Sequence record: PZ445523.1 | Reading direction: 5' to 3' (one strand) | DNA: 64,000 nucleotides | Origin: a phage | In this document: one piece after another, positions 25,809 through 28,633 of the stretch | Numbering within the stretch: position 1 is the first letter of the stretch | Layout: the number at the start of each line of letters is the position of its first letter | Position numbers and translations under genes: made by a program | Notes under the pieces: model-generated | The model's input: only the letters and a program-made list of their open reading frames with translations | What the model was told of the DNA's origin: nothing | The model's database searches: none

Positions 25809-25997
25809 TTAGTCCTTAGTTAAATTTTCTAAATATGTTTCTAAATCATTTTCAGCTTTATCGATAGATTTTACTAATTCGTAATATGTTTCGGCATCTC
25901 CATATTCAGAAGATATTTCAAAAGACAAATCCTTTTCTAAACTAATAATTTCACCAACTAAAAATAATATTTCGTTCTTTTGTTCGCGAGTAATCAT
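25809..25997 (-). CDS. Small acidic helical protein (62 aa), paralog family member
   Basis: MITREQKNEILFLVGEI...; family motif. Confidence 0.5.
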   Translation of the reverse strand: MITREQKNEILFLVGEIISLEKDLSFEISSEYGDAETYYELVKSIDKAENDLETYLENLTKD

Positions 25998-26179
25998 AAA
26001 GAATTTATATAATCAATGAGTTCTTGCTCTTTATCGTCGAAATCTTTACACAGTTCTTCGTATTCGTCAGTATTAAAAGGACCGCATTCATTACAAACTT
26101 TTTCCAATTCACTATTTTTATCCATAACTTCGTGGATAAGAGAAAAGAGTTTGTCTTTTTGTTCTTTGCTTAGGCTCAT
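25994..26179 (-). CDS. Small acidic helical protein (61 aa), paralog family member
   Basis: MSLSKEQKDKLFSLIHEV...; family motif. Confidence 0.5.
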   Translation of the reverse strand: MSLSKEQKDKLFSLIHEVMDKNSELEKVCNECGPFNTDEYEELCKDFDDKEQELIDYINSL

Positions 26180-26349
26180 ATATTAATTTCCAGAAGTTTT
26201 AAAATAATTCGCTTTTGCTTAAATATTTCCACAGTTAAATGATCAGTATCTTTTTGACCAATTCCAATGGCAAAACCTTTATTAACAGCGAGTTCAATTA
26301 AATTATCAAGTTCACGTAACACTTCGTATTGTAACTCAGAACTATTCAT
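26176..26349 (-). CDS. Hypothetical small protein (about 57 aa)
   Basis: Hand-translated ORF (MNSSELQYEVLRELDNLIELAV...); ATGA overlaps at both ends; below the ORF-track size cut-off. Confidence 0.4.
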   Translation of the reverse strand: MNSSELQYEVLRELDNLIELAVNKGFAIGIGQKDTDHLTVEIFKQKRIILKLLEINI

Positions 26350-26558
26350 TTTGGTTTACCTTCTTTAACGAAATCAGGATAAGGATAAAATCCTGAATAA
26401 AATCCTTCACCTTTATGATTGATGCATCCTTTATTAGAACAATAGCACCAATAATCGAAATCACAAGCCATTTCATCATTGCATAAAGCAAAAACAACCG
26501 GCCACTTACACTTTTCACAGTGGGCATTTTTAAGAATACTAGTTTGGCTCATAACCAT
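26346..26558 (-). CDS. Cysteine-rich small protein (70 aa)
   Basis: About ten Cys/His in CxxC-like spacing; likely a metal-binding fold. Confidence 0.5.
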   Translation of the reverse strand: MVMSQTSILKNAHCEKCKWPVVFALCNDEMACDFDYWCYCSNKGCINHKGEGFYSGFYPYPDFVKEGKPK

Positions 26559-26776
26559 GTCACCTTTAAGCAGTATTCTTCTACATGTTGTTTACGACCT
26601 TTCTTATCAATAAAGGTATATTCAACGAATGTTCCAATGTAGTCTTTATCTACATCATGTGGACTATTAATTGGACATTTAGTACGGCAAATGCGTTCCC
26701 ATTGACGAATAATTACTGCCTTATTCTTTGGGTCATACGGATGTGGATAATGTATATTCATAATAACGGTTCCCAA
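26549..26776 (-). CDS. Hypothetical protein (75 aa)
   Basis: ORF on the early strand. Confidence 0.45.
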   Translation of the reverse strand: MGTVIMNIHYPHPYDPKNKAVIIRQWERICRTKCPINSPHDVDKDYIGTFVEYTFIDKKGRKQHVEEYCLKVTWL

Positions 26777-27225
26777 TCAACAATCACAATTTCTAATTTA
26801 GAGGAATATGTATCTAAAATCCCCTCAATAATATCCCAGTTCCCTTTACCTATGCCTGCACCAATCCTAGGCATATAGATTGTAGGTTTAATCAGTTTAT
26901 TTTCACCAAACTCATTTAATTCTAACATACAATTCATTAAAGCGGAATACTCAAAATTTGGCCCTGGTTGAAATTGAGTATAAAGATTGAAGCAGTAAGC
27001 TTTATGAGTCCTAAAGTATTTTTCATAGACTGAGTAAGAACCGAGTTTAGTTACATCGCCCCATTCTGTCTGTAATTTATCAGCTTCCAAAATTTTAGGG
27101 AAAGCTTTGGTTAATTGACCCGCTACGCCTGAACCCATAGTATGAAAACAATTGCATCCATGCGCAATATTTTTACCTTCAGCGAAAAGGGCGACAATAT
27201 CGCCCTTGATATATTTTACAATCAT
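26758..27225 (-). CDS. Macro-domain protein (ADP-ribose binding or hydrolase fold)
   Basis: Macro-domain signatures: NC...MGSGVAGQ (glycine-rich loop) and PRIGAGIGKG. Confidence 0.55.
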   Translation of the reverse strand: MIVKYIKGDIVALFAEGKNIAHGCNCFHTMGSGVAGQLTKAFPKILEADKLQTEWGDVTKLGSYSVYEKYFRTHKAYCFNLYTQFQPGPNFEYSALMNCMLELNEFGENKLIKPTIYMPRIGAGIGKGNWDIIEGILDTYSSKLEIVIVDWEPLL

Positions 27226-27569
27226 CTAGTACTCAATCCTCGATTATAAGAATCTACCAAACGGTCAACCATTGAATGACAAGCGGCTTTATCTTTCTCC
27301 TCCGCAACTGAGCATTCTAAGGTATTCCACTTTTTAGCATATCGTTTTAATAATGTATCGTTTTTGTATCTGCTTGATTTATCTCTTTCTCCGTCTTTAT
27401 ATGCATATATTAATTTCTGTGCAAATTCAGCTTGGCATGCTTTATTTTTCCCACAATAATCTGCCGCAGTGCGGTTTACATATTCTCTAATTTCAGTATA
27501 TGATGTATCTGCTGACGCAGAAGCAGAAAATGAAATTAATCCTATACATAAAACCAAAATTTTAGTCAT
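27222..27569 (-). CDS. Secreted Cys-containing protein (115 aa); occupies the T4 vs position
   Basis: Signal peptide (MTKILVLCIGLISFSASASA); four Cys; lies between tk and regB; identity with T4 Vs not verified. Confidence 0.45.
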   Translation of the reverse strand: MTKILVLCIGLISFSASASADTSYTEIREYVNRTAADYCGKNKACQAEFAQKLIYAYKDGERDKSSRYKNDTLLKRYAKKWNTLECSVAEEKDKAACHSMVDRLVDSYNRGLSTR

Positions 27570-28107
27570 TTACTATTTCCAAAAGTTTATTATTTTTAAG
27601 GTAATTAGCCTTTTCTAGGACTTCAGAAGCATATTTAGAACCAGCTTTAACATTCCATCCCGAATTATAAGAGGATATTGCTTTTCTTATATCGCCCTTA
27701 TGTATATTTAACCAATAAGAAAGTTCAATGTACGCCCAGGAAGCTGAATTGGATCGTTTATTCAACATTCTTTTTATTTCAGCATCGGTCATATTATAAC
27801 CAAGTTCCTTAACTCTTGCTCGCATAGTAGGCAAATAATTTTGGAACATTCCATAGGCGTGATGCTTTGGTTTAGATTTTAAATTAACTCCGCCAGAGCT
27901 TTCTTGCCATAAAATAGCAGCCATTATATGACCTAATCCGCTCTTGTGGATATTTTTGTGTGTTTTATATTTTCCATCCTTAGAAAATTGTTCCCCGAAT
28001 TGATACGCGTAACGCATGTTATCGAGTTGGACATTACTGAAAGTATGCTCGGAGCTATGTGCCATCATTGAAATGGCCAATAGACCAGCGAGTAGTGCTT
28101 TTCTCAT
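27562..28107 (-). CDS. Secreted lytic transglycosylase-like protein (SLT domain)
   Basis: Signal peptide; SLT-type motifs WQESSGG (catalytic Glu), YGMFQ and SSYNSG. Confidence 0.55.
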   Translation of the reverse strand: MRKALLAGLLAISMMAHSSEHTFSNVQLDNMRYAYQFGEQFSKDGKYKTHKNIHKSGLGHIMAAILWQESSGGVNLKSKPKHHAYGMFQNYLPTMRARVKELGYNMTDAEIKRMLNKRSNSASWAYIELSYWLNIHKGDIRKAISSYNSGWNVKAGSKYASEVLEKANYLKNNKLLEIVND

Positions 28108-28576: not shown

Positions 28577-28604
28577 GTTATTCTCCTCTTAACTGATAGG
28601 AAAA

Positions 28605-28633
28605 TTATACCACAGCCAAGAGGAAAAGTAAAC
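28605..28633 (-). promoter_or_regulatory. Early promoter upstream of regB
   Basis: Minus-strand GTTTAC, about 18-nt spacer, TATAAT; then AAGAGGAGAA and the regB ATG. Confidence 0.55.

What the first reader, a model, noticed from the sequence alone, without database searches (positions are those of the whole stretch)
26758..27225. Macro-domain protein in the tk-regB accessory block
ORF 26758..27225 has the macro-domain glycine-rich loop (HGCNC...MGSGVAGQ) and a second signature (PRIGAGIGKG). Macro domains bind or hydrolyse ADP-ribose adducts. In a phage this could reverse host ADP-ribosylation-based immunity such as DarT-type DNA ADP-ribosylation, or process ADP-ribose-derived signals.
Basis: partly seen in the sequence, partly recalled or inferred. 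Interest (0 to 1): 0.55.

Follow-up and report, generated by a model that had tools for sequence, protein, structure and literature searches.

The report
T4 Tk.4 (AdfM) anti-DarT2 macrodomain

Summary

The window is a T4-like phage (Tequatrovirus, about 98.5% identical to RB18). The protein is 100% identical to T4 Tk.4. A November 2025 preprint (HIDEN-SEQ) found tk.4 as the only T4 gene needed to grow on DarTG2 cells. A clean knockout became sensitive, and the gene was renamed adfM.

What I add:
- Tk.4 is not DarG-like in its active site. The catalytic lysine of DarG and TARG1 is an invariant glutamine (Q84, 262 of 262 homologues), as in the thymidine-ADP-ribose hydrolase SCO6735.
- It lacks SCO6735's long mobile loop.
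- It is 35% identical to Adpp of Vibrio phage Gary, a proven ADP-ribose-1''-phosphate phosphatase.

Hydrolysis of ADP-ribosylated DNA by the T4 protein itself has not been shown biochemically.

The parts
26758..27225 (-). tk.4 / adfM coding sequence: 155 aa plus stop, a single free-standing macro domain
27148..27162 (-). Codons 22-26, H-G-C-N-C. His22 and Asn25 correspond to SCO6735 His24 and Asn27. In SCO6735 Asn27 locks the catalytic Gln, and N27S is nearly dead.
   Evidence: hhalign to BT1257. Residue roles from PMC9411070. N25 is kept in 261/262 homologues and H22 in 250/262.
27115..27138 (-). Codons 30-37, MGSGVAGQ: first glycine-rich loop, which binds the distal ribose and phosphate
   Evidence: Read directly from the sequence. 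G33 and A35 are each kept in 261/262 homologues.
26974..26976 (-). Codon 84, CAA = Gln84, at the end of strand beta 75-84. It occupies the position of the catalytic Lys of TARG1 (K84) and of DarG-type enzymes, and of Gln85 in SCO6735.
   Evidence: hhalign against TARG1, PhiKZ AdfM 'FPTK' and BT1257 'GQHG'. Invariant in 262/262 homologues. Q85A abolishes SCO6735 activity.
26842..26871 (-). Codons 119-128, PRIGAGIGKG: second glycine-rich (phosphate-binding) loop. G122 and G124 correspond to SCO6735 G126 and G128. G126 sits where TARG1 has Asp125.
   Evidence: Read directly from the sequence. G122 and G124 are invariant in 262/262. Alignment. G128E reduces SCO6735 activity.
27222..27225 (-). ATGA overlap of the vs stop codon with the tk.4 start codon, suggesting translational coupling
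   Evidence: ORF coordinates (vs 27222..27569, tk.4 ends at 27225) and the sequence. Coupling is an inference.
27232..27241 (-). GAGGATTGAG, a purine-rich candidate ribosome-binding site 6-11 nt upstream of the ATG
   Evidence: Read from the sequence. Not tested.
26758..26761 (-). ATGA overlap of the tk.4 stop codon with the start of tk.3, using the ATG start annotated in RB14 and T4
   Evidence: RB14 and T4 annotation. tk.3 = PF23832.
28604..28632 (-). Sigma-70-like site (TTTACT, 17 nt spacer, TG, TATAAT) upstream of regB. It is the nearest candidate early promoter for the regB-vs.1-vs-tk.4 run of closely packed or overlapping genes.
   Evidence: Consensus scan only. Such sites are not enriched over shuffles in this region (27 found, 32 expected), so this is only a candidate.

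Best explanation
The ORF is gene tk.4 (recently renamed adfM) of a T4-like phage. It encodes a free-standing 155-aa macrodomain of the ALC1-like/TARG1-like class.

Proposed mechanism: the host DarT2 toxin uses NAD+ to attach ADP-ribose to thymidines in single-stranded phage DNA, which blocks replication. Tk.4 binds the ADP-ribose between its two glycine-rich loops and hydrolyses the ribose-thymine bond. This releases ADP-ribose and restores normal DNA, so the phage escapes DarTG2.

The chemistry is probably that proposed for SCO6735, not that of DarG. There is no catalytic lysine. An invariant Gln84, held in place by Asn25, would position the distal ribose for attack by an activated water.

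What is shown here: macro fold, class, residue correspondences, conservation, and identity to T4 Tk.4.
What is shown in the literature: T4 needs tk.4 to grow on DarTG2 cells.
What is inferred: the T4 protein is itself the hydrolase, thymidine-ADP-ribose DNA is its substrate, and it uses the Gln-type mechanism.
For: Identity and context:
- 100% identical to T4 Tk.4, with the same gene order as T4 and RB14.

Genetics (bioRxiv 10.1101/2025.11.20.689424):
- tk.4 was the single significant HIDEN-SEQ hit on DarTG2, and a clean knockout was sensitised.
- This agrees with an earlier report that T4 lacking adfA and adfN stays DarTG2-resistant (PMC11825919).

Fold and class:
- Pfam Macro above cut-off and pLDDT 95.3.
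- At least three characterised members of this class cleave thymidine-linked ADP-ribose: DarG, TARG1 and SCO6735 (PMC9411070).

Active site:
- Q84 aligns with SCO6735/BT1257 Gln and with the DarG/TARG1 Lys.
- SCO6735 Q85A is dead and N27S nearly dead.
- Q84, G122 and G124 are invariant and N25 is 261/262 across 262 homologues down to about 30% identity. This is what is expected of an enzyme, not a mere binder.

Precedent:
- A different phage macrodomain, PhiKZ gp104, removes DarT2 ADP-ribose from DNA in vitro (PMC13309987).
Against: - No biochemical assay of the T4 protein is reported in the papers I could read. The preprint itself says the enzymatic mechanism 'seems likely'.
- The DarG/TARG1 catalytic Lys and the TARG1 Asp are absent (Q84 and G126).
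- The two lysines that position DNA in SCO6735 (K34, K89) are not conserved. Residue 32 is Ser, and the loop after Q84 (FQPGPNFE) has no Lys and is 6 residues shorter than in BT1257.
- The closest biochemically characterised phage relative, Gary Adpp at 35% identity, is a small-molecule phosphatase, not a DNA hydrolase.
- The genetic evidence is from a preprint, and the text I read mentions no complementation.
Confidence: 0.75

Rival explanations
1. Tk.4 is mainly an ADP-ribose-1''-phosphate phosphatase (Adpp/Poa1p-like), as its old 'A1pp phosphatase' annotation says. It would clear ADPR-1''P made by RES-type NAD+ phosphorylase defences (aRES) or by RNA repair.
For: - 35% identical (E 2e-23) to Vibrio phage Gary gp137. 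That protein, purified, converts ADPR-1P to ADPR and is needed for NARP1-AP to overcome aRES (bioRxiv 10.64898/2026.01.28.702374).
- Same PHROG 335, labelled 'phosphatase'.
- The Gln and all conserved loops are shared with Adpp.
Against: - A phosphatase is useful against aRES only if it feeds NARP1, and no Adps or Namat homologue is in the window (tblastn). From my own knowledge, T4 has none either.
- Tk.4 belongs to the 7-residue-loop subgroup. Only 1 of 46 such loci lies near a Namat-like gene, against 9 of 35 for the long-loop subgroup.
- ADPR-1P plays no part in DarT2 chemistry, so this activity would not explain the DarTG2 phenotype.
Confidence: 0.1
2. Tk.4 protects without catalysis. It would bind and inhibit DarT2 directly, or cap ADP-ribosylated sites or soak up ADP-ribose ligands, acting as a stoichiometric antitoxin mimic.
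For: Catalytically dead SCO6735 (Q85A), DarG (K80A) and TARG1 (K84A) macrodomains still inhibit DarT in vitro. SCO6735 does so most strongly (PMC9411070). Tk.4 lacks the canonical Lys.
Against: - The full set of residues needed for SCO6735 catalysis is conserved across 262 homologues from phages of many hosts. Surface residues that would contact a particular DarT are not expected to be this constant.
- There is no DarT-binding C-terminal domain; the protein is 155 aa and all macro.
- Binding an adduct would not restore replication.
Confidence: 0.08
3. Tk.4 erases other ADP-ribosylation. Candidates are marks written by the phage's own Alt/ModA/ModB transferases, or host defence marks on protein or RNA such as CmdT mRNA ADP-ribosylation. 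The DarTG2 effect would then be a side activity.
For: Members of the class are promiscuous. SCO6735 and TARG1 also de-modify proteins. T-even phages encode ADP-ribosyltransferases (mentions Alt and ModA).
Against: - No genetic linkage: the neighbours are vs, tk.3 and other small ORFs without ART domains.
- HIDEN-SEQ found tk.4 dispensable on plain K-12 and required specifically on DarTG2.
- CmdTAC is reported to defend robustly against the T-even family of phages (abstract of PMC11618068, listed), and these phages generally carry a tk.4 homologue.
Confidence: 0.05

Closest known systems
T4 Tk.4 = AdfM (anti-DarT factor Macrodomain), bioRxiv 10.1101/2025.11.20.689424
   Same: It is the same protein: 155/155 residues identical. 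It has the same position between vs and tk.3.
   Different: Nothing at the protein level. The host phage is not T4 itself. The DNA is closest to RB18 at 98.5%, and the window carries two small ORFs between tk.2 and tk.3 that T4 lacks.
SCO6735 (Streptomyces coelicolor) and BT1257 (Bacteroides thetaiotaomicron), the Gln-type ALC1-like macrodomains (PDB 5E3B, 2FG1/2AFC)
   Same: - Gln replaces the catalytic Lys, with conserved His, Asn and G-x-G partners.
- Free-standing and not linked to darT.
- SCO6735 cleaves thymidine-ADP-ribose DNA and neutralises DarT.
   Different: - Only about 26-30% identical.
- Tk.4 lacks the 5-6-residue extension of the 'mobile loop' that the authors call characteristic of that subclass.
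- It also lacks the DNA-positioning lysines K34 and K89.
DarG2 antitoxin macrodomain (T. aquaticus 5M31/5M3E, M. tuberculosis 5M3I) and the DarG-like PhiKZ gp104, also called 'AdfM'
   Different: - The catalytic Lys (FPTK) is Gln in Tk.4.
- No C-terminal DarT-binding domain and no adjacent darT.
- NCBIfam DarG score is 30 bits against a cut-off of 250.
- BLASTP against PhiKZ gp104 aligns only 23 residues. The two 'AdfM' proteins are separate lineages that share a name.
Adpp of Vibrio phage Gary (NARP1-AP pathway), bioRxiv 10.64898/2026.01.28.702374
   Same: 35% identity over 140 residues. Same PHROG. The same invariant Gln, Asn and Gly residues.
   Different: Adpp lies between Adps and Namat in a NARP1 operon and has a 14-residue loop after the Gln, against 7 in Tk.4. 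Its shown substrate is free ADPR-1''-phosphate, and it counters aRES, not DarTG2.
Human TARG1/OARD1 and yeast Poa1p
   Different: In HMMER's alignment Poa1p appears to have Ser, not Gln or Lys, at or next to this position (my reading by eye).

Membership tests
Macro domain superfamily (Pfam PF01661) | Profile score above the curated gathering threshold | tested here: met
   27.7 bits against a cut-off of 22, covering residues 22-132.
Macro domain superfamily (Pfam PF01661) | Three-layer alpha/beta macro fold with two glycine-rich ADP-ribose-binding loops | tested here: met
   [not shown]
ALC1-like / TARG1-like macrodomain class (TARG1, DarG, SCO6735/BT1257, Poa1p) | Closer in structure and sequence to class members than to MacroD, viral or PARG-type macrodomains | tested here: met
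   [not shown]
T4 Tk.4 / AdfM orthologue group | Sequence identity and conserved position between vs and tk.3 in a Tequatrovirus genome | tested here: met
   155/155 identical. Synteny with T4 and RB14.
T4 Tk.4 / AdfM orthologue group | Required for phage growth on DarTG2-expressing hosts | not testable with these tools
   Reported for T4 in bioRxiv 10.1101/2025.11.20.689424. It applies here because the protein is identical.
DarG antitoxin (NCBIfam NF048014 equivalog) | Full-length profile score above cut-off | tested here: not met
   30.3 bits against a cut-off of 250. Only the macro part of the 338-position profile matches.
DarG antitoxin (NCBIfam NF048014 equivalog) | Catalytic lysine (T. 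aquaticus K80) after the central beta-strand | tested here: not met
   Gln84 aligns with the Lys of the DarG-type PhiKZ AdfM 'FPTK' and with TARG1 K84.
DarG antitoxin (NCBIfam NF048014 equivalog) | C-terminal DarT-binding domain and an adjacent darT gene | tested here: not met
   The protein is 155 aa and the macro fold fills it. The neighbours are vs, vs.1 (SLT), regB, tk.3 (DUF7202), a zinc-binding ORF, DUF7438 x2 and tk.
SCO6735/BT1257 Gln-type subclass | Gln at the catalytic position, with His, Asn and G-x-G partners | tested here: met
   Q84, H22, N25, G122 and G124 align with SCO6735 Q85, H24, N27, G126 and G128 by way of BT1257. All are invariant or nearly so.
SCO6735/BT1257 Gln-type subclass | Mobile loop about 5 residues longer than in DarG/TARG1, carrying DNA-contacting lysines (K89, K94), plus K34 | tested here: not met
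   hhalign needs a 6-residue gap in Tk.4 relative to BT1257. The loop FQPGPNFE has no Lys. The residue equivalent to K34 is Ser32 (my reading of the alignment).
Adpp (NARP1-associated ADPR-1''P phosphatase) | Homology to Vibrio phage Gary gp137 | tested here: met
   35% identity, E 2e-23.
Adpp (NARP1-associated ADPR-1''P phosphatase) | Encoded within or next to an Adps-Namat (NARP1) operon | tested here: not met
   No Adps or Namat match anywhere in the 64-kb window at E<=1e-5. The flanking genes are unrelated.
TARG1/OARD1 | Lys84/Asp125 catalytic dyad | tested here: not met
   Gln84 and Gly126 occupy these positions.

The most novel reading that the evidence does not exclude
One phage macrodomain family (PHROG 335, with an invariant catalytic Gln) may have split into two counter-defence enzymes. 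The first is a short-loop form typified by T4 Tk.4/AdfM, which repairs DarT2-ADP-ribosylated thymidine in DNA. The second is a long-loop form typified by Adpp, which dephosphorylates ADPR-1''P for NAD+ rebuilding.

Alternatively, the T4 enzyme does both jobs. It would then be a Gln-type, lysine-independent DNA ADP-ribosylglycohydrolase with a DNA-binding mode unlike that of SCO6735. I did not find the link between them made in what I read of the two 2025-26 preprints that describe these proteins.
Probability: 0.4. Interest if true: 0.45.

Novelty: already known. Interest (0 to 1): 0.2.

Why it matters
The gene itself is textbook T4 inventory, and its anti-DarTG2 role is already in a preprint. 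The practical value of this check is therefore confirmation and sharper classification.

It shows that the T4 'AdfM' is mechanistically closer to SCO6735 (Gln-type) than to DarG. It also shows that T4 AdfM is a different lineage from the PhiKZ 'AdfM', and that it is a close relative of the Adpp phosphatase.

This matters for anyone annotating phage macrodomains. At least 2,847 phage records carry a relative. A hit to this family cannot by itself be read as anti-DarT or as anti-aRES. It also points to the mutants (Q84A, N25A) and the substrates to test.

Tried and rejected
- Single-sequence AlphaFold2 gave an unusable model (pLDDT 38.6). I discarded it and used the alignment-based model instead.
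- HMMER's ungapped alignment to BT1257 places BT1257's Gln opposite Cys78. The profile-profile alignment with a 6-residue gap places Gln on Gln. I preferred the latter because it also matches the strand ends in the model.
- I checked whether homologues labelled as bacterial (MAGs of Bacilli and Culicoidibacterales) might reveal a cellular, DarT-linked ancestor. Both lie on T4-like phage contigs, so they say nothing about origin.
- Isoelectric point as a proxy for DNA binding was uninformative. Tk.4 has pI 5.9, and the proven DNA enzyme PhiKZ AdfM has pI 5.1.
- The promoter scan found no enrichment over shuffles, so expression timing is not established here.
- The loop-length versus NARP1-adjacency association (Fisher p = 0.002) is not corrected for relatedness of the loci. 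Some loci are near-duplicates, so it is suggestive only.
- I could not retrieve model coordinates to measure Q84-to-ligand distances. I could not obtain the full SCO6735 sequence, so BT1257 (54% identical to it) served as proxy.

Full report
**Observation.** The window holds an ATG-started ORF at 26758..27225 on the minus strand, 155 aa. The start codon overlaps the stop of the upstream gene vs (ATGA). The stop overlaps the annotated start of tk.3. The gene therefore sits in a tightly packed minus-strand run: regB, vs.1, vs, tk.4, tk.3, two small ORFs, tk.2, tk.1, tk. Pfam assignments for the neighbours are TK, DUF7438 twice, Phage_zn_bind, DUF7202, SLT and REGB_T4. None is related to ADP-ribose. 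Only the strand was left unstated.

**Is it a macro domain?** Yes.
- Pfam Macro (PF01661) scores 27.7 bits against a gathering cut-off of 22.
- PHROG 335 ('phosphatase') matches at E 1.3e-65.
- phmmer against PDB sequences finds BT1257 (E 1.3e-9), Poa1p, SCO6735, T. aquaticus and M. tuberculosis DarG macrodomains, and TARG1.
- A single-sequence AlphaFold2 run failed (pLDDT 38.6). With a 115-sequence alignment (A1) the model reached pLDDT 95.3 and pTM 0.91.

The protein therefore belongs to the ALC1-like/TARG1-like class. According to PMC9411070, reversal of thymidine-linked ADP-ribosylation is a unifying function of this class.

**What gene is it?** The surrounding DNA matches 664 phage records. 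The best is RB18 at 98.5%, and almost all are Tequatrovirus and relatives. In RB14 and T4 the orthologous ORF is annotated tk.4, 'phosphatase; contains A1pp phosphatase motif'. The window's protein is 155/155 identical to T4 Tk.4. The phage is not T4 itself, because it carries two small ORFs between tk.2 and tk.3 that T4 lacks.

**What is known about it?**
- A November 2025 preprint (HIDEN-SEQ, bioRxiv 10.1101/2025.11.20.689424) infected a DarTG2-expressing E. coli with a T4 transposon library. It found tk.4 as the single significant hit. A clean tk.4 knockout sensitised T4 to DarTG2.
- The authors noted structural similarity to the Mtb DarG macrodomain and renamed the gene adfM. They wrote that enzymatic removal of ADP-ribose from DNA 'seems likely'.
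- This fits the earlier finding that T4 lacking adfA and adfN stays DarTG2-resistant, and that T2 lacking adfN does too (PMC11825919).

**How does it work?** The preprint compares Tk.4 with DarG, but the active site is not DarG-like.
- Profile-profile alignment puts Gln84 on the catalytic Lys of TARG1 (K84) and on the Lys of the DarG-type PhiKZ macrodomain (FPTK). TARG1's Asp125 is Gly126 in Tk.4.
- The same alignment method puts Gln84 on the Gln of BT1257 (GQHG). BT1257 is 54% identical to SCO6735, so this corresponds to SCO6735 Gln85.
- SCO6735 lacks the Lys and Asp, yet it cleaves thymidine-ADP-ribose DNA faster than DarG or TARG1. Q85A kills it and N27S nearly kills it, and G128E reduces activity; G126 contacts the diphosphate in simulations. 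The authors propose water-mediated catalysis with the Gln positioning the distal ribose (PMC9411070).
- Tk.4 has the equivalents H22, N25, Q84, G122 and G124. Across 262 homologues, from a word-indexed search and an exhaustive profile search, Q84, G122 and G124 are invariant. N25 is kept in 261/262 and H22 in 250/262.

This is strong evidence for a conserved catalytic site of the Gln type.

Two SCO6735 features are missing. The 'mobile loop' after the Gln is 6 residues shorter than in BT1257, the same length as in TARG1. The DNA-positioning lysines K34 and K89 have no counterpart. Tk.4 is thus a third arrangement: Gln-type chemistry with a short loop.

**A second characterised relative.** While checking the family's distribution (at least 2,847 phage records by tblastn), I saw homologues next to 'ribose-phosphate pyrophosphokinase' and 'nicotinamide phosphoribosyl transferase' genes. 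This occurs in Acinetobacter phage B09_Aci01-1 and in Vibrio phage Gary. These are Adps and Namat of the NARP1 NAD+-rebuilding pathway.

A January 2026 preprint (bioRxiv 10.64898/2026.01.28.702374) shows that this very Gary protein (gp137, 'Adpp') is an ADPR-1''-phosphate phosphatase. It lets NARP1 overcome the aRES defence. Gary Adpp is 35% identical to Tk.4 (E 2e-23). It has the same Gln but a 14-residue loop.

In 81 viral loci the results were as follows:

| Loop after the Gln | Loci | Loci within about 2 kb of an Adps/Namat-like gene |
|---|---|---|
| 7 residues | 46 | 1 |
| 9-15 residues | 35 | 9 |

Fisher's test gives p = 0.002. This is not corrected for relatedness, and some loci are near-duplicates. 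All T4-type orthologues are in the short-loop group, and no Adps or Namat is present in the window.

The family thus contains at least two experimentally supported functions. The conserved Gln does not distinguish them. Context and loop length suggest, but do not prove, that Tk.4 is in a different functional subgroup from Adpp.

**Rivals.**
- A primary phosphatase role is unlikely for T4. There is no NARP1 to feed, and ADPR-1P has no part in DarT2 chemistry. In vitro phosphatase activity remains quite possible.
- A non-catalytic DarT2-inhibitor role has precedent, since dead SCO6735, DarG and TARG1 inhibit DarT in vitro. It does not explain the invariant catalytic set across phages of many hosts.
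- Erasing the phage's own Alt/Mod marks, or other host marks, has no contextual or genetic support.

**Other points.**
- The name AdfM is also used for PhiKZ gp104, a Lys-type DarG-like macrodomain with proven DNA de-ADP-ribosylation (PMC13309987). BLASTP aligns only 23 residues between it and Tk.4. The two are separate recruitments of the macro fold.
- Homologues labelled as bacterial MAG proteins lie on T4-like phage contigs.
- The profile search finds 18,953 cluster representatives at E<=1e-3, so the wider family is very large.

**Verdict.** The function is already known from the literature for the identical protein, at the genetic level. Hydrolysis by the T4 enzyme and its Gln-type mechanism remain inferred. 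Novelty: already known. Interest is low (0.2). A modest residual question is how one Gln-type phage macrodomain family divides, or shares, DNA repair and ADPR-1''P phosphatase activities.

Noticed in passing
L006:4004-4480 (Vibrio phage Gary) and L005:4001-4474 (Acinetobacter phage B09_Aci01-1): Tk.4 homologues sit inside NARP1 operons (Adps / macro / Namat). The Gary one is the published Adpp phosphatase. Across 81 viral loci, a long loop after the catalytic Gln goes with NARP1 adjacency (9/35 against 1/46). I did not find the link between T4 AdfM and Adpp made in what I read of either preprint.
   Followed up: partly
literature; PhiKZ gp104 versus window 26758..27225: The name 'AdfM' is used for two macrodomains that BLASTP barely aligns: PhiKZ gp104 (Lys-type, FPTK, DarG-like) and T4 Tk.4 (Gln-type, YTQ). 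This is likely to cause annotation confusion.
   Followed up: yes
window 26176..26349 (-) and 26346..26558 (-): Two small ORFs lie between tk.2 and tk.3. They are absent from T4 but present in RB14/RB32-type phages. The second is a Cys-rich PF23895 'Phage zinc binding domain' protein, and the first has no Pfam match.
   Followed up: partly
window 25809..25997 (-) and 25994..26179 (-): tk.1 and tk.2 both match PF24219 (DUF7438), so they are tandem paralogues of unknown function.
   Followed up: no
window 27222..27569 (-) vs; 27562..28107 (-) vs.1: Both proteins begin with signal-peptide-like N-termini (MTKILVLCIGLISFSASASA... and MRKALLAGLLAISMMAHS...). This fits Vs.1, which has an SLT transglycosylase domain. 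It is odd for Vs, which is annotated as a modifier of the cytoplasmic valyl-tRNA synthetase. HIDEN-SEQ reports vs as the most depleted T4 gene in minimal medium.
   Followed up: no
window 27187..27207: A perfect 8-bp palindromic stem (AAGGGCGACAATATCGCCCTT) lies within codons 7-13 of tk.4. The terminator scan flagged it on the antisense strand. It could equally fold in the tk.4 mRNA just after the start codon. It may be chance.
   Followed up: no
L003 and L004 (contigs from MAGs GCA_051648945.1 and GCA_051660865.1): Homologues labelled 'Bacilli bacterium' and 'Culicoidibacterales bacterium' lie among T4-type genes (Rnl1, Pnkp, dCMP deaminase, spanin, Dda-like helicase). These are phage contigs binned into bacterial MAGs. 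In L003 a DUF4326 protein and an Rnl1 ligase lie just upstream of the macro gene.
   Followed up: partly
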